From Octopus vulgaris (taxonomy: Eukaryota), in NCBI GenBank assembly GCA_951406725.2, contig OX597818.1:113770001-113834000 (forward strand): a stretch of DNA of 64,000 nt. The letters are read 5' to 3'. Positions 1 through 60,294 of the stretch are shown here, piece by piece. The notes below the pieces were generated by a model. That model was not told the origin of the DNA, made no database searches, and was given only the letters and a program-made list of their open reading frames with translations. A program made the position numbers and the translations under genes. Position 1 is the first letter of the stretch. The number at the start of each line of letters is the position of its first letter.

Positions 1-83
1 GAAAGCCGTGGTCAGGGTGAGGGTACAACCTAACAGACACACAGACACACACACAGACAAACTGCCGTTTATATAGAGAGAGA
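1..83 (-). mobile_element. 5' end of non-autonomous Helitron (runs off the window start)
   Basis: Reverse complement reads A|TCTCTCTCTATATAAACGGCAGTTTGTCTGTG...GTACCCTCACCCTGACCACGGCTTTC, matching the 5' end of the complete TC...CTAG element at 22321-22704. Confidence 0.8.
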
Positions 84-253
84 TATTTATCCCTCACTGG
101 ATGGAGTACTTTTCAGCTGATCCTACCAATAACGGAACAGTTCACTGAGTGTGGGTGTGTATGGCATGTGTGTGTGAGTGTGCATGTATAAAGAGAGAGG
201 TGGAAAGAGGAAGAGAGAGAGAGTTTCATTCAAAAGGAAATTTGCTAAGGCTG

Positions 254-405
254 TTGTGAAATAGAATGAAACCCACAACAGTCTTTGCGATGAAAACTTC
301 TTAACTCTTCGGCTTTACTTCGAAATAATTCTAAATTTATATGTATTTTACATATAATGCCATTTGGAAACATTTCGAAATATAATTTCTTTTAGAATAT
401 TGTCC

Positions 406-491
<86 letters not shown>

Positions 492-496
492 CATAC

Positions 497-567
<71 letters not shown>

Positions 568-767
568 ACAATATTCTAAAAGAAATTATATTTCGAAATG
601 TTTCCAAATGGCATTATATGTAAAATACATATAAATTTAGAATTATTTCAAGTTAAGCCGAAGAGTTAAGAAGTTTTCATCGCAAAGACTGTTGTGGGTT
701 TCATTCTATTTCACAAGTTACGACTTGGCATTCAAAGAATTTTGCAAAACTACAAATTAATTTACGC

Positions 768-813
<46 letters not shown>

Positions 814-852
814 CATACATATATATATATATAAACATACATATATATATAT

Positions 853-916
<64 letters not shown>

Positions 917-1014
917 ATATATGTATGTATGTTTATATATATATATATATATATATATGAGGCGTAAATTAATTTGTAGTTTTGCAAAATTCTTTGAATG
1001 CCAAGTCGTAACTT
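254..1014. repeat. Double inverted duplication around two (TA)n arrays
   Basis: 254-407 is the reverse complement of 564-716 (about 2 differences); 715-771 is the exact reverse complement of 958-1014; TA-rich arrays at 408-563 and 772-957. Confidence 0.95.
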
Positions 1015-1134
1015 TGTGTTCTACACTAATTGATAATGTCAGTGATAGATTTTAGTTGTTTCGCTTCATATAAACGGTTCCTTTACCACTTCTGAGGATT
1101 GGATTTAAGCGCTTAACGGTTTAATGTTTAAGTG

Positions 1135-1296
1135 GGCGCAAATATTAAGCTGTGCTTTAAGAGGTTCGGTTAGCAACCACGGTTTTTCGAGTATTATATC
1201 ACTGCATGACACCTTGGACAATTTTTCTACAATTATAGCGTCGCGTCAACCAATATTTCGTGAATGAAATTCTGTAGTCGAAACTGTGTGGAGCCC
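1135..1296 (+). mobile_element. Decayed tRNA-derived SINE head (CORE-like family)
   Basis: Diverged match to the head at 60551-60700 (caaccac, caccttggaca, gaaactgtgtggagccc). Confidence 0.6.
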
Positions 1297-1961
1297 GGTT
1301 TAACTTTATTACTTGGCTGTTGGTTATCCTTAGTTGAATCTATCCCGTTCCAGGTAACCAGTGAAACTGGAAGTTTTGATGAGCATTACCCTTCCTTCTT
1401 TGGCCATTTCCCTGCCCACACCACAACTTAGGATTTCACAACTTTTTGGTGAAACCTTATTAATTTACCGCCGCAAAAATTTATTCTGTCTCAGAGTTGT
1501 TCGTTTTAAACAATTCTTTTCTAAGCCAACAAATGCATATTTATACATTAATTGTGTTGTTCTGGTTAAGCTCCAGGTCAGCATTGAAATCAAGCGGGTT
1601 TATGGAGATGCCGTTACGGCCATATATATACGAGAGGTTATATTTATCGGAGTCGATAAATGAAGTGCCAATCAAGGCGATGGATTAGTGGAAGTGTAAG
1701 AACGTCGGACTGGATCTATTGTGATATATTTTCCGCTCTTTACGAAGTGAGTTCAAATCTCCCAAAGGCCTTCATGGACAGTAGACTTAATATCTTTAGT
1801 AGAGTCCACTTGGTTGCAAATATTCGGGTCCGGTTTTTAGTTAGGATACTTTTCTCCTTCAAAACGCTAGTCTCAGAGGCCTCGTAACGGGCTATGGGTA
1901 CTGCCTTCCCAACTGACTAAAAGGTAAAGAAAAAGTAAAATATCAATACTAGAAAGTAATT

Positions 1962-1994
<33 letters not shown>

Positions 1995-2034
1995 TTCTCT
2001 CTCTCTCTATCTCTCTCTCTATCTATCTTTTTTG

Positions 2035-2215
2035 AGATTACACCTGTAATTTACAGATCAAATCTTCTCACATTGTATCACGTGGTTTCAGTCTGAGAAT
2101 GGAGTTAAAAGCGCACGTGCTTGTTAAGTATTCAGGTGTTCATGTCAGTGGAATACTTAGATGCTTACGCGTTGATAGAACGATTGAATGCTCGTCATTG
2201 AAACCGAACAGAAAG
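2035..2215 (-). repeat. Diverged copy of the interspersed repeat at 25258-25486
   Basis: Reverse complement aligns loosely with 25258-25440. Confidence 0.5.
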
Positions 2216-2439
2216 GAGAATCTAAGAATCTATTAAATTCCTAAATTTAGACTATAAGTCTGTCTGCTGGACATGAAACTGACTGTGTGTGGGTCAAACA
2301 ACAAAAACAATTACCACCAAGACAACAGCAAAATCAACGTCAAAAGCAAAATCCTTTCTGCTGTAGACACAAGGCCTGAGATTTTGGAGATGGGGTTAGT
2401 CAATTACATCTTCCTTGTGCTCAACTGATACTTATTTTG

Positions 2440-2964
2440 GATCTTTTCCTTTTGAACGGCACTTTGTAACATAATTTCTAGGTAACTAAAAAGTTTTAAA
2501 CTTCGTATACTGATAGAATGTGTTTATAAAACATCATTTTCTCTTGGCTTTATTGAGAAAATTCTATAGGTTGTAACATATTTCGTCTAAAATTTCTTGC
2601 ATTTCGGCAATTTTAACCAATCAATTACCTCCATTGACGTAAATAACATTCTGTGCATAATGAATATGTCCCTCCTTTAAGAAACAGATTGGGTTTATTT
2701 ACATTGGTGAAGAAAAAAGATACCCTTCCTCAACCCCTAACCCTAACCCTAACTAACCCTAACTAATCCCAACTCCAGCCCTAAATCTAAAATAGATTGA
2801 AATGCAATAGATCGATACTAGGGCTATAATTATGGATGACATTTTCATTTGACACCGCGAGAAAAAAAATTCCATTTTCCGTAGCGGTGTCGTATGAAAT
2901 TGTCACCCATAATTATAACCCTAGTATCGATCTATTGCATTTCAATCTATTTTAGATTTAGGGC
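2440..2964. mobile_element. Non-autonomous element with internal (TAACCC)n and an 81-bp terminal fold-back
   Basis: Homologous to 29006-29482; both start GGATCTTTTC; CCCTAA repeats at about 2733-2762; inverted arms 2778-2858 and 2884-2964. Confidence 0.7.
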
Positions 2965-3154
2965 ATTTAGCGATAACTAGCACTTGACTATGAATAATTG
3001 GGTACAATACCATCAGTATATTGAATAAGTACAATCCCTTAGTTGGTTCCTCAACTTCACTAACTCACACAGAAATACATATCAAAATAAGCATCACGAT
3101 ATCAAAGTAGTGATGCAGAACAACCGTTTCAAGCGACACCATTTAATTGAACAA

Positions 3155-3189
<35 letters not shown>

Positions 3190-3194
<5 letters not shown>

Positions 3195-3385
3195 CGACAA
3201 GATAGAAAATGCTAAAATAAGAAGTTTTTAAGCTTCGAGCAGTCAGTGGTAGGTATAACAAACCAAATTTCAGGACCAATAATAATTTATCGGCGTCGAA
3301 TGTTGTAACCTTTTCCCATATCGAAGTTCGATAAACTAAAAAGTATGCAGCCCCAATTTTACCTGTTCCACGCCCTCAATTTGGA
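3190..3385 (-). repeat. Short interspersed repeat, second copy at 50262-50475
   Basis: Shared blocks aattgaggg-gtgga, ttatcgaactt-gatatgggaaaa, ttcgacgcc-ataaattattatt and tgctcgaagctta. Confidence 0.75.
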
Positions 3386-3419
3386 CACAGACACAGACAC
3401 GCACACACACATAGAGTAT

Positions 3420-3840
3420 TGGCCCAGGCCTTGTCTAACGTAATAGCACTATCTGGCGAAGTCATTCAAATTAGGAATCGGACAACATGGTCCACTCGAG
3501 GAGAGAGTTATTGTTTACGGATGCATATCCGTGTGTAGGAGGTTTTATCCGGGATTTCTTCAAGTAATTTGTCCAATGACTTCTTTAACTTTATGGGGTC
3601 TATTTCTGCTTTAATATGTTTTTATGTAATGCTAAAGAGACAGGGTCAATTGATATGAAATAATTGTGCCGTATTGCTGTTATGAGATGCGAGTATGATT
3701 TATGTTGTGGGCGGATAGCACGGGGCCCAAGTCTTGGGTGTGTCTTAAAGGTGATGTCAATATCATTTGGGCAATTCTGATGGAATATTAACCACATCAT
3801 GCAGATGATGTAGCGCTCACGGGCCATGGCAACTTTGCAA
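3420..3840 (-). mobile_element. 3' end of a CR1/L2-like LINE ORF2 (pseudogenic)
   Basis: Translation [34 protein letters not shown]...KLKKSLDKLLEEIPD resembles the C-terminal motif of CR1/L2-group ORF2. Confidence 0.65.
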
Positions 3841-3903
<63 letters not shown>

Positions 3904-3904
3904 G

Positions 3905-3975
<71 letters not shown>

Positions 3976-4139
3976 GTAACATGTACATATATGAAAACAT
4001 AAATGTATATGTACATATATCCTTACAAATTTATATATAGACACATATATAACATATATGTATGTAAATGTATGTTTGGGTATATGCATACACGCGCGCA
4101 CACACATTATGTATATATATGTGTGTGTGTGTGTGTGTT

Positions 4140-4178
<39 letters not shown>

Positions 4179-4207
4179 TTGTGTATATTACATATACATA
4201 TATGAAT

Positions 4208-4287
<80 letters not shown>

Positions 4288-4651
4288 CGTGTGTACATGT
4301 GTGCATGTATGTGTACATGTGTGTGTGTGCGTGTACATGTGTGTGTAAGCGCGCGCTATTGCTTTCTCATCCGTGTTATGTCGGGAAACCTTAAAGTTTC
4401 TGTTTAGATCTCTAACGTCTCTCTCTTCAGAATTAACCCAGTAAACTGATAAGAATCTGGTGACTCTGGAGACAATTTATCCCTCTCATTTATATGTTTT
4501 AATTTGTTATTTCTGATGTTGTTATTTCCATTGCCTTCTTTCCTCCTTTTCTTTCTACCCTCCTTTCTTGATATTTTCCTTTTTATCTCCTGACTTCTTG
4601 CTTGAGCTATTTCGCCAACTATCCTCAAGTGTCAAAAACAGCTACATATAC

Positions 4652-4693
<42 letters not shown>

Positions 4694-4875
4694 GTGTGTG
4701 TGTGCAAATATATGCGTTTGCGTGCATATCCATAAATATATATGTTTGTGTGTATGTGTATGTATGTATGTATGTATGTATGTATGTATGTATGTATGTA
4801 TGTATGTATGTATGTATGTGTGCGTGTGTGCGTGTGTGTGTAAGTATTCTGAATTGATTGCAATTCATTATCACA

Positions 4876-5034
4876 GGCGCAAGCATAGCTCTGTGGTAAG
4901 AAGTTTGCTTCCCAACCACATGGTTCCGAGTTCATTCCCTCTGCAAGCCACCTGAGACAAGTGTCTTGTACTAGAGCTTCACGTTGACGAAACTCTTGTG
5001 GATGGATTTGGAAACTAAATGAAGCCTATCTTAT

Positions 5035-5089
<55 letters not shown>

Positions 5090-5627
5090 GACACATACAT
5101 ACACACACACACACATATATATGTGTGTTTGTATCTGTGTGTGTGTGAAGCGTCTTTCTGTTTGTCCCCATAACCATGTATCTTCTTTACAGCAGCACAC
5201 CTGTTTCTACCCTCTTTCTTATTAACTCTCTCTCTCTCTCTCTCTCTTTCTTCGTATCTCTTTCTTACCCTCTCTTTCTCTGTTTGGGTAACCCTGAATC
5301 TCCTCTATAGCAACACATGTGTTTCTGTCTTTCTGTCACACTCTAACTTTTCCTCATCTGACACAAGATCACCACCTCCAATCCTCCCTCCTCTCTCAAA
5401 CATTCCTTGTCTTGCACATTACTTGGTGACCCTGTCAGTGCAGGTGCCACTTAAAAAGGATTCAGCCCATTCTGCAGGGTGTTAGGAATGGCATCCAAAC
5501 GTAAATACCCTGCTAAAGCAGACACAGAAGTATGGTGCAGTCTTCTGCTAGACCAGCTCCTGGCAAACCGTTCAACCCATTCCAGCATGGAAGGAGGACG
5601 TTAAACAATGATGAGGAGGATGATGAT
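4876..5627 (+). mobile_element. Composite tRNA-derived SINE with microsatellite body and (GAT)n tail
   Basis: tRNA-like head with A/B-box-like motifs at 4876-5030; Nin-like gttaggaatggcatcc; tail CAGCATGGAAGGAGGACGTTAAACAATGATGA. Confidence 0.75.
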
Positions 5628-5639
5628 ATATATATATAC

Positions 5640-5755
<116 letters not shown>

Positions 5756-7029
5756 GTATGTATGCGTGTGTGTATGTATGTATGTATACATAGCCAGAGA
5801 TAAGCTGATTTCGAATTCGAGTCCACTAAAGAAAAATAGCAATAATACTTTAATGAAATATTAACAATAAAACATAAATAAAATAATCAAAATGTCAGAG
5901 AGGAGAGTATGAAAATGAGAAATAAGGGCATGGGGTGGAGTGAATAAGCAAATGAAAAAGGAAATTAAAAGAAAGAACGAGAGAAGGAAGAAAAGAAGAA
6001 AGAAAAAGAGAAAGGAGCAACGCAAAAAGAATTACAAAGATTAAATCATTAGATTGTTTTCCTATAATTTTAATGTATATGTATGTAAGGTGTATGTGAT
6101 TATATGTGTATTCGTGTGTATGTGCCTGTATGTGTGTGTATGTTCTGTGTGCATGTAAATTCATATAATTTTCTGTATCATTTTTATTTTGTTGTTGTTT
6201 GGTCCGTTAAGTTTGTAAAAATATGTCAGAGATACGTAGTGGAGAAATATAAGCACGAGTGAGTGTATGTTAACGTATATAAATGTCTGCGTATACACAT
6301 GTGTATTAACATCTTAATTTATATACTGAAAGGAAGAACTATATTGTAAGTGAATGTGAGTATGTATAAATGTAAGCAGTCGTAATCAGCAGCACATTAT
6401 ATTAATAATATATTTCAAGTTTCACACGCCAAACATAGTTTATACATACATAAATGCATGTATATATGTATACATACATAAATACATACATATGTAAGTA
6501 CATATACACACCAGTTTTCTTTTACGCACAACTATATTAAATGTAATTCCAACCATGTGTAGCAACATCGAATGGAATCCGCTATACATTTGTATGTATG
6601 GATGTATGTATGTATGTATGTATGTATGTATGTATGTATGTATGTATGTATGTATGTATGTATGTATGCATGCATGTATGTATGTATGAATGTATGTATG
6701 TATATAAGTATGTATGTATGTATGTATGTATGTATGTATGTGTGTGTATATATGTATGTATGTATGTTCGTTTGTATGTAGGCATGTATTATTCATGTAT
6801 CTATGCATTCACGCGCGTGTTTGTGTGTGTGTGTGTCTGTCTGTCTGTCTGTGTTTGTGTGTTTGTATGCGCGTGTGTATTTTAAGATGAAGACCATGAC
6901 TCTCGCGGCAGACGGTGACGTGGAGTAATGGCTCCTGCAACAGTGTTTAACGTTAGGATAAAGTCAATTTCTTTATTAACCATGAAGTTGAGAAAAAGAG
7001 GGGACGATATGAGGACAGACAAAACAAAC

Positions 7030-7115
7030 GTTAGGACAAAGTCATCGGTATAGTCTGCACCTGTTATTGTCGAGGTTGTGTATCAGGAACTTCTTGGTTC
7101 GTGAGGTTAATTCCT
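7030..7115 (-). pseudogene. RTE-like reverse transcriptase fragment
   Basis: Translates PRSS*YTTSTITGADYTDDFVL, a degenerate YADD motif in RTE-like context. Confidence 0.5.
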
Positions 7116-7849
7116 GCTGTTATCTACTGAAGTATGGTGGACATATCTATGACAAAATATAAATATGTAAAGTGCAAGATGTCTCCTCATAAATCTCTTG
7201 CATGAATGTCAAAATTTATATCTGTTTCTGTCAGGTGAACATACTTTAGCTCTAGTGTATTTACAGAACATTATTATTGCATCTACTGCTTTTATTTTGA
7301 AGATATAAAAGATATTTCCAACAACCTAACTCAGGACAATGAAAAATGGACAAACTCTCCGACGGAACACTAACCTCGTATATATGGTATTCTATGTGAT
7401 CCCATTTTTCATTTCCATTGCAGTTCTTTATCCTTAAGTTTGGGTATCGGAGATACAACTATTATAACTGAGTCAAAAGAAAGGAAAAGAAAAATAGAAA
7501 AAAAAAGGGAACATTCTTGTTAATCGACTCATCCGTCTATCGGGGACTCACGCTTTCGAACTCCAGTCTTTTTCTCGACTAATCACAATCACTATTGATA
7601 TGATCTTCTGTAGTCACTAGCTACAGGAAAATGCCGTAACAGAAACCGTTGCACATAGCTTTCTGCGACCCCACTAAGATATTTGATTCCAGGAATCTTG
7701 ACGCTTTCGGAATAATTGTGACCAAATCTAGCTACCAACAAAACGTCATCAGAATCACACACTGGAAGCTAATGTGCGATGACAACCTGACATGGGAGCT
7801 GGAGTAAGACAGAAATGAATATTTACTCCCTACGTTCTTTTCTATCTCT

Positions 7850-8620
7850 CTGTCAGTTATAATCGAGCCCACTCTTTGCGATCTTTCATCTATCATCCAC
7901 ATTTCAAGCTATTTAATCCTTTCTGATTCCATGTTGTGATATATTCACATCTACAATGATAAGTAAACATTAGTATGTTGTTGATATTACAGCAAATGCA
8001 ACCTCAGCAGACCTACAGAAAACTACCATCATTTTCACTGGTATATATGAAAACGTGTCTACCTTTCAGTATAAGCAAAACAAAGGTCGCATCAACAAGC
8101 ACCTAACAAGCAGCAACCAGGCTATTCAAATACAAGGAAAATCGATGGAAAATGTAGAGCTGTTACCTATTACAAAACGCAGATATTGATTAGGGTATGC
8201 AACGCCGGACAAGACATGGCAGCGCACGTTTCTGAAGGCTTAGAAGACAAGTATACGAATAAAAGAAGTCATGATATATAATGCAGTTGTAATAACCACT
8301 CTTCTATACAGCTCTAAAGCCTGGACAATCTATAGGCGACATCTCTGTTAGTTGGAAATATACTATTAGACATCACTGAGAAAAATTCTTGCACACTTAG
8401 AAATATTTAAAAAATGGAGGAATGTCGATCTACTCAAGCTAGCAATATCTCTTACAGTCAATAATGATTGCCCGCCATTACCTTCGATAGACTGGTCACA
8501 TCGTACGAATACCGCGCTACTGGATAGTCAAACAACTGTATAGATGAAAGCGTATACAGAGAAAACAAACGAAGTGGTTCAAGGATATATAGGAATTTGG
8601 AAAAGCGTGTTGACAAAGTA
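7850..8620 (+). mobile_element. Decayed RTE-clade LINE ORF, 3' half
   Basis: IYNAVVITTLLYSSKAWTIYRRHL..LRKIL and LR*TGHIVRI match RTE/BovB-type C-terminal motifs; multiple stops and frameshifts. Confidence 0.8.
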
Positions 8621-8703
8621 CAAGCATTGATTTTTTTCCAATGATAATATTGTATATGACTTGAGATGTTTGACTTGCTTTAATATTTGTTGTCCTCTTT
8701 AGC

Positions 8704-21675: not shown

Positions 21676-21727
<52 letters not shown>

Positions 21728-21730
<3 letters not shown>

Positions 21731-22313
21731 GATAAATCTCAGAGCGAGTTATAAACAGTAGCGGTAACACATCGTGACGCATATTTGCCATTTGAATATG
21801 GCTAACCCCTAAGGGTGGATGCTAAAGTAGTTTGTAGCCCCAGGAGGATATCTCCTCCAGCTGGCTATAGACACACTATCTGTGTCCTCTCAGTATTTGT
21901 GAAGGGGAGTCATCCTCCCCGTTTTCAACTCATGATACACACGGACCCGAGTTTCAAGGTGTTTACCTTTCATCAGCGTGTGACAATCATGGTTGTCGAC
22001 GAGAAGTTAGCTCCCTTCACAAATACATGTACTTTTGCCAGTGTCGATTGACACTGATATTGAAAAAGTGAAATCAAACAATGATAAATCTCAGAGCGAG
22101 TTATAAACAGTAGCGGTAACACATCGTGACGCATATTTGCCATTTGAATATGGCTAACCATATGGTTAGCCATATTCAAATGCATATTCACAAATAGTGA
22201 GAGGACACAGATAGTGTGTCTATAGCCAGCTAGAGGAGATATCCTCCTGGGGCTACAAACTACAGTAGCATCCACCCTTAGGGGTTAGCCATATTCAAAT
22301 GGCAAATATGCGT
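21728..22313 (-). mobile_element. Retrozyme-like element: 352-bp hammerhead-containing unit, 80-bp direct redundancy and inverted copy
   Basis: 21728-21807 is identical to 22080-22159 (period 352); perfect palindrome 22141-22182; 22187-22313 is an inverted copy of 21777-21903; TA repeats on both sides. Confidence 0.8.
21938..21982 (-). ncRNA. Minimal type I hammerhead ribozyme
   Basis: Minus strand: CACACG-CUGAUGA-AAGGU-aaac-ACCUU-GAAA-C-ucgg-GUC-CGUGUG. Core complete, 6-bp stem I, 5-bp stem II, 2-bp stem III; predicted cleavage between 21944 and 21943. Confidence 0.92.
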
Positions 22314-22320
22314 ATATATA

Positions 22321-22704
22321 TCTCTATATATATAAACGGCAGTTTGTCTGTGCGTTTTCTGTGTGTCTGTTTTCTCGTACCCTCACTCTGACCATGGCTT
22401 TCAACCGATTCTGATGAAACTTGACACACACATAGCCCAATGTCATAATTCAAAACTAACGCAGCGAAAATTTTGAAAAGTTCCCCCAGTTCTGAAAAAA
22501 ATCGATAAATTCGACATGGGGTCGAAAATCAGAAACCCAAACCACAGACCGTCTAGGGGACGCAACTCCACCTTTTTTAACTCTCAAAAAAAATTTACCA
22601 TCATTTTTTCCCCATTTTTTTGCTATTTTTTGGCTATAACTCTCTAAAAATGCTTTATAGTTATTTCCCTTACAAACCTGAGCAACGCCGGGCGATACTG
22701 CTAG
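22321..22704 (+). mobile_element. Complete non-autonomous Helitron
   Basis: A|TC 5' end, subterminal hairpin cctgagcaacgccggg, CTAG|T 3' end. Confidence 0.85.
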
Positions 22705-36387: not shown

Positions 36388-37845
36388 CACTGGCCAAAAT
36401 AAGGTTAATGACAGTTTTATTCCTTCATTAATATATTTTTGACAAGACTATATAAAATTATTTTACTTTTTACAGTTAATGTAGAATATTTTTCTCTTTC
36501 GAATGATATAAGCATTATATATCTTTCTACAATTCGAATAATTTTAATGTGCAATTAATTCAAATGATTAGAAATTGTCAACAAAATAAGTTTAAGACCG
36601 TTCCAAGATTATGCAAATTAATAAACCAAATTGGTGGTCATATGGCTTGTTGAACTGCATTTTTTGTTTAATAATCGAGCATTGTTACACATTAAAATGT
36701 TGTGGGAAAGCGTTATAGTGTCAGCTCTGTTACTAGATCAAAGATTGTGTTGTTTCATCAGCAAAATGTGTCCTTCATGAACATTAGCAAGCAATTAGGA
36801 TGCAGCAAAACGGCTTGTGTTCAAGCATCGAATCATTACCAAGCCACTGGTCAATACAAAGATCGGCAAAGAAAGGAAAACAACAGCACCGATGGATCGG
36901 CGAATTCATAGGATCTCTGAATGTAACCAAATGCTAACAGCAGTTAATATTTGCAAGCTAACATCAGCTTTACACCACAAACTGTCAGAAACCGCCTAAA
37001 AGAATTTGGATTGTTCGGCTAGATCGCTCGAAAGAAGCCGATAATTTCTGAGACGTATCGGCGGATGTGGATCAAATCTGCTAAAAGGCATATTGAATGG
37101 ACGGCCGAAGACAGGTAAAAAGTTCTTTGGAGCAACGAATCCCACTTCTGCATCTATGGATCAGACGGAAAGACTTATGTTAGATGCCGTCCAACTGAAG
37201 AATTCCATCCTAAGTGAGTCATGAAAATGGCGCAAACGGAAGGTGGTGGGATAATGGTGTGGGCTGCGTTTAGCAGCTTAGGTGTTGGTCCAATTGTTAG
37301 GGTTGATGGCTATTTGCAATTAGTAAACGAAAATGTGCTACCATATTTAAATAATCAGATGCCACCAGCAGAACGATTGCCCCGTTCATAAGGCTAGGAA
37401 AATTTTGCAATATTTTGAGCGTAATAATATGGTGGTTATTGAGCGGCCTCCGCATAGCCCAGCTTTGAATCCGATAAAAAATTTATGGAATTATGTTTCT
37501 AAAAGATTTCATGCTAAAAGACCAACAATTTAAACCCAATTATATAATTTTACTGAAGAAATATGGCAGAACATTCCAAGTGATTTTTGTGCTCATTTGT
37601 CGAACTCCGTGTCCCACCGTTGTAAGGCTGTAATTGAAAATAATGGCTTTGGAACTAGATACTAATAATAAATTTTTGTTCGTTGATCATTTGTGCCGTA
37701 AATTTTCAATTTAAACAAAATAATGTTGTTACGGTCTTAAACATATTTTACCGATAATTTTTAATCATTTGAATTAATTGCGCATTAAAATTATTCAAAT
37801 TGTAGAAAAGTATATAACGCCTGTATCATTCGAAAAAGAAAAACA
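36388..37845 (+). mobile_element. Tc1-like DNA transposon with long TIRs (right TIR truncated)
   Basis: 36487-36601 is inverted at 37731-37845; encloses a disrupted transposase. Confidence 0.9.
36702..37665 (+). pseudogene. Tc1 (DD34E-type) transposase pseudogene
   Basis: HTH N-terminus, ARKKP, VLWSNES, GGGIMVWAAFS, PPHSPALNPIKNLW, CKAVIENNGFGTRY*; several stops and frameshifts. Confidence 0.92.
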
Positions 37846-37942
37846 TGAACACGCACACATTTACACGCACTGCCCTGACAATTACATGACACACTCACAC
37901 AAACACACCATACAGAAAAATATTCATATATATATATAAATA

Positions 37943-37985
<43 letters not shown>

Positions 37986-38251
37986 ATTCGAGACAAAACC
38001 ACTATTTTAAAACCAAACAAGGAAAGACTTTAATCAATACATAAAATTTTAATATAAATTAAATAAACCGCCACTACATATGTTTATTTAATTTATATTA
38101 AAATTTTATGTATTGATTAAGTCTTTCCTTGTTTGGTTTTAAAATAGTGGTTTTGTCTCGAATTATATTATATAATATTTTACTTTAAAATTGGATTTAA
38201 CCCTAAATCTGATTTTTCCCTGTAATTTTGGATTCATTCCCTAATATTTAT

Positions 38252-41822: not shown

Positions 41823-42444
41823 TCTGGCTTTCAGTTTACAATGTCTTATTGCAAATCGCATTCATAAATAAAGCGTCCGCGATATACGGTAAACACAGCC
41901 AAATTGTATTCGTAAATTTAGATTACCTTTTTCTTTTACTGTACTGTATTGATAAATAAAAATTGTTTGTAAACTTAAAATAGATTTTTATTAATCATGT
42001 ATTATTGAAAATGCATTCATAAATGAAGTACAGAACTGGGAATGGTTATTATCGGTTTAGCCTAGAGAAAAGCAAATTCGGCCTAACCTTCCCTAGAAAC
42101 AAGTTAATTCGACTTAAGTTGTGTCTCTTGGAACCAGTTAACGACGTAGGGTGAGATATGCCAGTATATATATAAGAAATAATTAAGGCTCAGTTGAATT
42201 AGGTACTTAAGTTGAGGCACCAAGTCAGTCCGGTATTATCCGCACAGCTCGAAGTTTAATAATATCAATAAGTAACAGGATTTCAAGTATTAGTGCAATA
42301 CAACCGTTTCAAGCGGCTTCATTTAATTGAAGAATTATATCAATACTGTATTTAAATTAATGTAATACTTGCATTGTTCAATTAAATGAAGCCGCTTGAA
42401 ACGGTCGTATTGCACTAATACTTGACCTACTGTTATTTATTTTG

Positions 42445-47458: not shown

Positions 47459-47830
47459 AACAAATAAACACACACACACACACACAGATAATGAAAGAAT
47501 AAACATGGATGTGAACTTGCTATCCATTATAACATCTGTTATGCTTCGATATTCGGTACTTAAATTTTGTCATGTTGTATATGCAAGCCATGTATGCAAC
47601 TTATAAGTACAGCATACTTAATCAAACTCTTGTTCACAAACAAGCAGAAATGTAATATAAAATACGAGAAAGTTATACGGCCAGTGGGAACGGAGGAGGC
47701 TGGGGGTGGAACTTTTAAACCATTCTTTCAACGTTTTAAGTTCAAATTCTGCTATACTGACTTTTTCTTTCTTGTATTTCAGGTCGGTAAAATGCGTACT
47801 GCTTGAGCACTAGCGTTATGCAATCCCCTA

Positions 47831-47903
<73 letters not shown>

Positions 47904-48422
47904 GATTACGCTAGTGCTCACCCGGTACACTTTTTACCGATCGCGAAAAGATGAAAGGCAAAGTCAATATCGGAATTTGAACTATGAACGTTGAAAGAGT
48001 ATACGTCTGACAAGAATATATATATATATATATATATATCTCACATTTCAGATCATAATGCAGAAAAGTTGAACTTTTCTGACCTTTTCTGCATTATGAT
48101 CTGAAATGTAAGATCTTTTCTACCCTGATGACGGAGGCTCGATTTATCCAATATTGATTCCTTCCATTACAGCCTAATATTGTGATGAACTACATCTACC
48201 AACATTATGATGGATATCCGAGCCTCCACAAACAGATCTTGGACTAATGACACCTTTCTTACTCTCCTTTAATTTTCTCAGTCCTCTGTATTCTGTGAAA
48301 GTTGAAACTATTAATATAAATATCTATATATTTAGACTTAAATATTCATCGTCTGAAAGTCTCCACTTCTTGCTTTCTTTCGTCTTGCATGTATTCATAT
48401 ACATACTTGTACATACATATAC

Positions 48423-56914: not shown

Positions 56915-57646
56915 TCTTTTATCATTTACTTGATTCAGTCATTAGACTGCAGCCAGGCTGGAGCACCGCCTTGAAAAATTTTAGTTGAACGAATCGACCC
57001 CAGTGCTTCTTTTGTAAGCCTGATACTTAGTGTATTGGTCTCTTTGCCGAACCGTTAAATTACGGGGACGTAAACACACCAACACCTGTTGTCAAGCAGG
57101 GGGATGGGACAAGCACAAAGAATCACACATATAGACACACACACATGCACAGTCTCACACACACACATATACATACATACATATCTTTTACTGTTATATA
57201 TTTTTTTACTGTTTATATTTTTTTACTGTTTATTTTCTTACTGTTTATATTTTTGTACTGTCGTTACTGTCCTGTTTTTTTTACCATTTCTTTACCATTT
57301 TTTACCCCTCTGCGAAAAGATCTCAGAATTTTAATTGATTTGCTTTTCGCAGGAAGGAAAGTTTCTTGTCGAAGATACGTCTCGCTTTTATCCTTCGAAA
57401 CGTAGAGTAGATGAAACCTTAGCGACTGAAGAAGGGGTTTTTTCGTTGTGTTAATTGTCCTGTACTCCATTTTTTGTTGTTTTTAAAAAAATGTCCAGTT
57501 CCTTTGGTTTGTGTCTATGTTTTCGTTTCTCTTTGTGTTCGACGTCCCTTTGGTGTCCTGTACTCATATATGCGTGTATATGTACATGTAGAGGTAGGTA
57601 CGTACATATATGTTTATATATATATGCATATGTTTTATTTCATTTA

Positions 57647-57683
<37 letters not shown>

Positions 57684-60145: not shown

Positions 60146-60294
60146 TAATAAAAGAAAAAGAAATAAAACATATGCATATATATAAACATATATGTACGTA
60201 CCTACCTCTACATGTACATATACACGCATATATGAGTACAGGACACCAAAGGGACGTCGAACACATAGAGAAACGAAAACATAGACACAAACCA

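What the first reader, a model, noticed from the sequence alone, without database searches (positions are those of the whole stretch)
254..1014. Double snap-back scar: both flanks of a (TA)n array copied in inverted orientation into the array
Seen: the structure is L-(TA)n-L(inverted, 153 bp)-R(inverted, 57 bp)-(TA)n-R. The two inverted copies are fused at about 712-716, where both templates carry CACAA. Interruptions inside the second array are mirrored (ataaacatacatacat on the left, atgtatgtatgtttat on the right). L and R each continue outward into unrelated sequence. Inference: a break in a self-complementary (TA)n array, fold-back synthesis from each end, then microhomology-mediated joining. 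This doubles the array and creates long palindromes without any transposon. Near-identity of the arms implies a recent event.
Basis: partly seen in the sequence, partly recalled or inferred. Interest (0 to 1): 0.78.

Follow-up and report, generated by a model that had tools for sequence, protein, structure and literature searches.

The report
Double fold-back scar at TA microsatellite
In a large animal genome, the unique DNA on each side of a TA repeat also sits, copied backwards and joined end to end, inside that repeat; it is most likely the neutral scar of one broken-DNA repair event, not a gene or a transposon.

Summary
The structure is real: L(254-407)-(TA)n-L'(564-716)-R'(715-770)-(TA)n-R(959-1014). 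The arms are 98.7% and 100% identical and single-copy. Short-read contigs fork exactly at both breakpoints in one sample and at one breakpoint in another. A related organism's contig runs through R with no fork. So the junction is very likely real and young, but short reads cannot show orientation.

Two corrections. The exact overlap is 2 nt, not 5. The array interruptions mirror in motif but not in number.

Best reading (0.6): one break in the self-complementary array, both ends folded or hairpin-capped, then joined by microhomology.

In 1.79 Mb sampled, 0 of 767 TA arrays show this exact form. One second double fold-back with unique flanks turned up, which the rival cannot explain. The scan noted related one-sided scars in other genomes. 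Verdict: a neat, probably neutral, two-sided variant of known fold-back repair.

The parts
254..407 (+). L: original single-copy left flank, template of the first inverted copy
   Evidence: a contig of run X17 carries the L version and ends exactly at its outer end
408..563 (.). TA array 1, centre of the first palindrome; one G at 443, then C-type interruptions at 488-496 (polarity G then C)
564..716 (-). L': inverted copy of L, 153 bp, one substitution and one 1-nt deletion against L
712..716 (.). Novel junction; exact 2-nt overlap at 715-716 inside an imperfect 5-nt microhomology
   Evidence: fork positions
715..770 (-). R': inverted copy of R, 56 of 56 identical
771..958 (.). TA array 2, centre of the second palindrome; three C-type units (810-868), a pure 32-nt centre (869-900), two G-type units (901-933)
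959..1014 (+). R: original single-copy right flank, template of the second inverted copy
   Evidence: a contig of organism B runs through it into the outer flank with no fork

Best explanation
Both unique flanks of a TA array stand a second time, inverted and fused, inside the doubled array, and this is most likely the neutral scar of one double-strand break in an ancestral L-(TA)n-R locus whose two ends likely each turned back on themselves before being rejoined. Proposed steps: (1) the array extrudes a cruciform and is cut (inferred; shown for AT repeats in yeast and human cells, not here). (2) Both ends become hairpins centred in the TA repeat, either hairpin-capped by the symmetric cut or self-primed, which accounts for the two-sidedness (inferred). 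(3) Each end gains an inverted copy of its own flank, 153 and 56 nt beyond the array, by fill-in synthesis and displacement, or by opening of the hairpin far from its tip (the copies are shown, the route is inferred). (4) The two tails are joined over 2 nt of overlap (the junction is shown; the enzymes, NHEJ or polymerase theta, are untested). (5) The product passed through the germline after organism A split from organism B, or still segregates in A, and the arrays have since slipped (inferred). Three template switches at a stalled fork would give the same product and are counted here.
For: Anatomy and single-copy arms. Contigs fork exactly at both breakpoints in X17 and at the R breakpoint in X2, and not in X3 of organism B. 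Interruption polarity flips G to C in array 1 and C to G in array 2; each pattern occurs in 16 of 225 other arrays, so the middle is inverted with turning points inside the arrays. L106:7952-8700 has the same fused double fold-back with a 4-nt microhomology and nearly unique flanks (1 and 0 hits); its second centre is an 11-nt loop with no TA array, so duplication plus inversion cannot make it. One-sided yeast fold-backs reach 10 to over 150 bp with 0-5 nt overlap, median 2 (PMC11724301 section 15). Cruciform breaks occur symmetrically and leave hairpin-capped ends (PMC8053094 passages). TA repeats are cut and channelled into microhomology-mediated joining (PMC13645644 passages; PMC12972899 abstract).
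Against: A fresh fold-back should mirror the array exactly, and it does not: units number 0 (one lone G), 1, 3 and 2 across the four half-arrays. This needs later slippage or consensus error. No contig spans the junction itself, and the L contig in X17 has depth 28.9 against 38.1 for the single-copy right flank, where about double was expected. X1 gave no laid contig. Three raw-read runs gave 0 reads, which the tool marks as no test. The simple ancestral allele was never seen in one piece. 0 of 767 sampled TA arrays show the same form, so recurrence at TA arrays is not shown.
Confidence: 0.6

Rival explanations
1. Two ordinary steps. A 2-nt-microhomology tandem duplication of L-(TA)n-R came first; the piece between the two arrays was then inverted, because TA arrays are self-complementary and act as inverted repeats. 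Re-insertion of a small L-T-R circle into the array in reverse gives the same result.
For: It predicts the identical sequence, junction, forks and G/C polarity (logic). The unit counts 0+1+3+2 equal two copies of a three-unit array cut at different points. The precursor exists: 4 of 853 neighbouring TA-TA pairs are direct duplications with both flanks.
Against: It needs two events at one site. None of those 4 precursors is flipped, and no flipped case was found (weak, small n). The unit on the L' side lacks the TTT mark that all five units of array 2 carry. It cannot produce L106.
Confidence: 0.27
2. The genome carries a plain direct tandem duplication, and the assembly flipped the 207-bp middle between the two TA arrays.
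For: Short-read forks are blind to orientation, and no long read was available. Array interiors may hold consensus errors.
Against: There is no gap or N in the region. The assembly is chromosome-scale. The same assembly keeps 4 comparable duplications in direct orientation. That long-read assemblers do not flip 200-bp pieces is my own knowledge.
Confidence: 0.06
3. The break was made by the GIY-YIG endonuclease of a Penelope-like retroelement that targets (TA)n; no element was inserted, and the primed ends copied the flanks instead. This changes the cause of the break, not the repair.
For: The genome holds many GIY-YIG frames, several of 781 aa (148 matches of 150 scored, 6136 candidates). One reads as a reverse-transcriptase-like frame ending in GIY-YIG (my reading of the motifs). 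Such elements end at TA arrays, and some have inverted terminal copies, as described for this class (PMC8557442 passages).
Against: No element-like sequence lies in window 200-2300. The geometry is the reverse of an element insertion: the TA arrays sit at the centres of the palindromes, not at their outer ends. L106 has no TA array at its second centre.
Confidence: 0.05
4. 564-770 is a small transposon or MITE inserted into a TA array.
For: It is flanked by TA on both sides, and TA arrays in this genome are frequent insertion sites.
Against: Its two halves are copies of the local flanks, it has no other copy, and its ends are not inverted repeats of each other.
Confidence: 0.02

Closest known systems
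Local fold-back inverted duplications at double-strand breaks in yeast (PMC11724301; abstract and section 15 read)
   Same: Inverted copy of the DNA next to the break, primed by self-annealing, 10 to over 150 bp, joined over 0-5 nt (median 2).
   Different: In the section read, the insertions came from one end only, at an induced cut, and most were 5-34 bp. Here both ends are copied, the primer is a (TA)n array, and the product is inherited.
Hairpin-capped breaks from cruciform cleavage at palindromes and AT-rich repeats (PMC8053094, passages; PMC12972899, abstract)
   Same: A self-complementary centre, symmetric breakage, and inverted duplication of the flanks.
   Different: The outcomes described there are chromosome-arm inverted dimers, deletions and translocations. 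Here the copies stop after 56-153 bp and are rejoined in place.
Snap-back synthesis-dependent MMEJ and polymerase theta templated insertions (PMC2943611, PMC5728401, search listing only; PMC13645644, passages)
   Same: Limited synthesis from secondary structure near the break, microhomology joining, small duplications near TA repeats.
   Different: Typical templated insertions are, from my recall, a few to tens of bases. Enzyme dependence is untested here.
Four-point template-switch mutations (PMC5453318; abstract and section 4 read)
   Same: A local reverse-complement copy creates new inverted repeats.
   Different: The model allows one contiguous inverted fragment. Here the insert is two non-adjacent fragments, so it needs three switches or a prior tandem duplication.
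Penelope-like element insertions at (TA)n with an inverted 5' copy (PMC8557442, passages)
   Same: Inverted repeats next to TA arrays; abundant in this genome.
   Different: Those arms are multi-copy element ends with TA outside the palindrome. Here the arms are unique flanks with TA at the centres.

Membership tests
Fold-back templated inverted duplication at a DNA break | The inserted DNA is the reverse complement of the sequence flanking the break | tested here: met
   152 of 154 columns and 56 of 56
Fold-back templated inverted duplication at a DNA break | Self-complementary sequence at the turning point | tested here: met
   Both centres are TA arrays with a polarity switch
Fold-back templated inverted duplication at a DNA break | Short (0-5 nt) microhomology at the rejoining point | tested here: met
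   2 nt exact, inside an imperfect 5 nt; fork position agrees
Fold-back templated inverted duplication at a DNA break | The copy mirrors its template right up to the turn | tested here: inconclusive
   The flanks mirror; the array interruptions differ in number, which slippage or consensus error could cause
Fold-back templated inverted duplication at a DNA break | An ancestral allele without the insertion exists | tested here: inconclusive
   Organism B has no fork at R, but contigs break at the TA array, so L-(TA)n-R was not seen in one piece
Fold-back templated inverted duplication at a DNA break | One event, dependent on end-joining and repair polymerases | not testable with these tools
   Needs an experimental break assay
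Four-point template-switch mutation | A single contiguous reverse-complement fragment between one switch and one return | tested here: not met
   The insert is two fragments from opposite sides of the array; definition from PMC5453318 section 4
Inverted triplication (ODIRA type) | One segment in three copies, the middle one inverted, bounded by two palindromic junctions (definition recalled; PMC4689423 seen as search listing only) | tested here: not met
   L and R are each in two copies, with a third, non-palindromic junction
Penelope-like element or MITE insertion | Interspersed copies elsewhere in the genome | tested here: not met
   3 matches, all local; no hit below E 0.04 in 140 sampled stretches
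Penelope-like element or MITE insertion | Element termini (inverted ends, pLTR or coding remnant) between the TA flanks | tested here: not met
   The ends of the insert are unrelated; no match of window 1-3500 to 30 GIY-YIG loci; no Rfam match at gathering score among the 150 rows shown
Tandem duplication plus inversion between TA arrays | A direct-duplication intermediate with the same junction | not testable with these tools
   Short-read graphs give the same junction words for both orientations; needs long reads from several individuals

The most novel reading that the evidence does not exclude
The locus is a germline fossil of symmetric cruciform cleavage: a (TA)n array cut into two hairpin-capped ends, each opened or extended far from its tip and rejoined, leaving giant palindromic additions on both sides and doubling the array in one step. 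With L106 it would define a recurrent two-sided fold-back class in this genome (1 in 1.79 Mb sampled, about 1,600 genome-wide, 95% range about 40-8,700), a transposon-free source of long palindromes and of microsatellite doubling.
Probability: 0.25. Interest if true: 0.55.

Novelty: new variant of a known kind. Interest (0 to 1): 0.3.

Why it matters
No function is indicated: the arms are unique non-coding DNA, and the only frame of 130 aa or more that overlaps them (657-1055) runs through the TA array. The value is mechanistic. TA-repeat fragility is known from yeast and cancer cells, where the reported outcomes are mostly deletions, translocations, small duplications and one-sided fold-backs. 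A clean two-sided, inherited product would show what one repaired cruciform break looks like in an animal germline. It also gives a search pattern that can be counted in any long-read genome, and a route by which TA arrays double in one step. If the two-step rival holds, the locus shows instead that TA arrays act as inversion breakpoints at the 200-bp scale.

Tried and rejected
Direct read support failed. Raw reads of X22-X24 (about 1,934 million letters each, roughly 0.7-fold) gave 0 reads on 564-770, which the tool marks as no test; by my rough estimate several reads were expected, so some dropout is unexplained. X1 gave no contig. X18 gave only a 33-nt off-locus match. That match (729-761, 3 differences, also in X2, X17 and X3) may be chance and was not used.

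Contig depth as copy number was rejected: it is flat per contig, and here it runs against two copies of L.

Rfam gave only hairpin and microsatellite matches below gathering score among the 150 of 398 rows shown.

I first took the excess of hairpins next to TA arrays (29 of 746 TA edges against 1 of 497 CA/GA edges, Fisher p 4.9e-6, some events counted twice) as support for break repair at TA arrays. I dropped it: 21 of the 29 arms have copies in other sampled stretches, and the TA lies outside the palindrome, which fits mobile elements.

Mirror flanks are not enriched at TA arrays in the sample: 4 of 767 against 4 of 1219.

Of four abutting-pair candidates, L202 is built from a multi-copy repeat and L037 is two unrelated inverted pairs; L009 has TA at the join, not at the centres. 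Only L106 was kept.

The array units do not decide between the two leading models.

Paper searches listed no title or abstract opening that describes a two-sided inherited fold-back at a TA array. They cover open-licence full texts only, I read few of the hits, and no supplements were opened, so this is weak evidence of absence.

Full report
Observation. The window lies at G000:C5:113,770,001-113,834,000 in a 2.8-Gb genome of 227 contigs, with at least 30 contigs over 20 Mb and dense microsatellites. From recall this fits an octopus; I did not test it. The four-part structure is as reported. L (254-407) is copied in reverse at 564-716 with one substitution and one 1-nt deletion, and R (959-1014) is copied in reverse at 715-770 with no difference. 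The insert has no match outside the locus, and L and R have no meaningful match in 140 sampled 10-kb stretches. Folded as single-stranded DNA, 254-716 and 715-1014 form long hairpins of -211 and -127 kcal/mol (no shuffle control).

Is it in real DNA? Twenty of 24 listed runs hold the right flank. I laid eight of them on 564-770. In X17 (organism A) a 173-nt contig carrying the L version ends exactly at 716, and a 1,002-nt contig of the right flank begins with exactly 30 letters of R (715-744). In X2 (organism A, another sample and study) the right-flank contig ends on the same 30 letters. In a 31-mer assembly graph (word size recalled) this is the mark of a fork at each breakpoint. In X3 (organism B) the contig runs through all of R without a break. 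At most one of these samples can be the source of the assembly, so the junction is very likely inherited, and it is absent from the one B sample. Against: no contig spans the junction (a 58-nt piece, probably below a length filter, which I recall but did not test); the L contig has depth 28.9 against 38.1 for the flank; X1 gave nothing; X18 gave only an off-locus 33-nt match and three raw-read runs gave 0 reads. Forks cannot tell an inverted middle from a direct one.

The arrays. Interruptions switch from G to C in array 1 and from C to G in array 2. Each pattern occurs in 16 of 225 other long TA arrays, and the mirrored motif in 1 of 225. This supports an inverted middle with turning points in the arrays. 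The mirror is imperfect: one lone G on the L side, one unit on the L' side, three on the R' side, two on the R side.

Duplicate L-T-R in tandem, then invert the piece between the two self-complementary arrays, and the result is L-T-L'-R'-T-R with the same junction. The unit counts even sum to two copies of a three-unit array, though the L' unit lacks the mark shared by the five others. Direct duplications with a TA array in each copy make up 4 of 853 neighbouring pairs, none flipped.

How common? In 179 stretches spread over 30 chromosomes-scale contigs (1.79 Mb; the stretch next to the window was left out of the counts), mirror flanks occur at 4 of 767 TA arrays and 4 of 1219 other arrays, and the strict four-part form at none (upper 95% bound 0.4% of TA arrays). 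Of 132 inverted pairs, window included, three have a second hairpin abutting the outer end: this finding, L075 (multi-copy arms) and L106. L106:7952-8700 reads L, 233-nt loop, L', a 4-nt microhomology, R', 11-nt loop, R, with nearly unique outer flanks. Its two centres are not homologous, so duplication plus inversion cannot make it. That is the best evidence that two-sided fold-back happens in this genome, though it is one case.

A look-alike class to keep apart. Hairpins whose outer end abuts a TA array are common: 29 of 746 TA edges against 1 of 497 other edges. Most arms (21 of 29) are multi-copy. The genome has many GIY-YIG frames; elements around them end at TA arrays, and L156 and L164 carry inverted terminal copies, as described for Penelope-like elements (PMC8557442, passages; they are annotated in Octopus vulgaris, PMC13282606, passages). 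That the short hairpins are truncated insertions of such elements is my inference. The finding has the reverse geometry and no element sequence.

Mechanism. I commit to one break with two folded ends (0.6). AT repeats form cruciforms and are cut by structure-specific nucleases (PMC12972899, abstract); breaks at TA repeats go to microhomology-mediated joining and can leave small duplications (PMC13645644, passages). Cruciform breaks are symmetric and hairpin-capped (PMC8053094, passages), which explains why both ends would turn in one event. A nick on each hairpin far from its tip, or self-primed synthesis, gives each end a tail that is the inverted copy of its flank; joining the tails yields this sequence exactly (my derivation; off-centre nicking by Mre11 is recalled). 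One-sided yeast fold-backs match in size and overlap (PMC11724301, section 15). Shown: the copies, the junction, the polarity, uniqueness, and the fork in A but not B. Inferred: the break, single-event origin, enzymes and neutrality.

Comparison and verdict. It works like a fold-back templated duplication and meets the sequence-level features of that class. It is not a single four-point template switch (PMC5453318, section 4), an inverted triplication, or an element insertion. Earlier notes of the scan describe related one-sided scars in other genomes and none in this one. My paper searches showed no two-sided inherited case at a TA array, within their limits. New variant of a known kind, probably neutral; interest 0.3.

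Noticed in passing
L106:7952-8700 (G000:C3, about 55.008 Mb): A second double fold-back: inverted copies of both flanks fused over a 4-nt microhomology, with centres of 233 and 11 nt; outer flanks have 1 and 0 hits in the sample.
   Followed up: yes
window 37970-38178, 42267-42441, 48038-48114 and 29 edges in L004-L143: Hairpins whose outer end abuts a long (TA)n array, often with a short TA remnant at the other end; 29 of 746 TA edges against 1 of 497 other edges. Mostly multi-copy arms, likely truncated Penelope-like insertions with an inverted copy.
   Followed up: partly
L144-L173 and the list: A young GIY-YIG plus reverse-transcriptase-like family with many open 781-aa frames across chromosomes, copies up to about 98% alike, bounded by TA arrays; L156 and L164 have inverted terminal copies.
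   Followed up: partly
window 21676-22330: A recent complex rearrangement right of a (TA)26 array: an 80-bp exact direct copy, a 42-bp perfect palindrome and a 127-bp inverted copy (97%).
   Followed up: partly
window 47724-47998: An older one-sided mirror X-(TA)n-X' with arms 77% alike and no copy in the sampled stretches, followed at once by another TA run and hairpin.
   Followed up: partly
L070:6465-6871, L133:8163-8481, L059:6138-6339: One-sided mirrors around microsatellites with unique or near-unique arms (100%, 98.5% and 86% alike); L070 turns at a short GC/AT palindrome and has extra templated pieces.
   Followed up: partly
window 2778-2964: A 187-bp imperfect palindrome (88%) next to telomere-like CTAACC repeats; the region has copies in about 15 sampled stretches, so it is probably a MITE-like repeat.
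   Followed up: no
window 36489-36612 / 37720-37846 and 57505-57648 / 60153-60294: Pairs of inverted repeats 1.1 and 2.5 kb apart (86% and 97%), possibly the ends of DNA transposons.
   Followed up: no
L182:336-9952: A 369-bp tandem satellite filling the whole stretch, with copies close to identical.
   Followed up: no
window 1-90 and 22314-22402: Two copies (87%, opposite strands) of an interspersed repeat end that begins 164 bp left of L; not part of the structure.
   Followed up: partly
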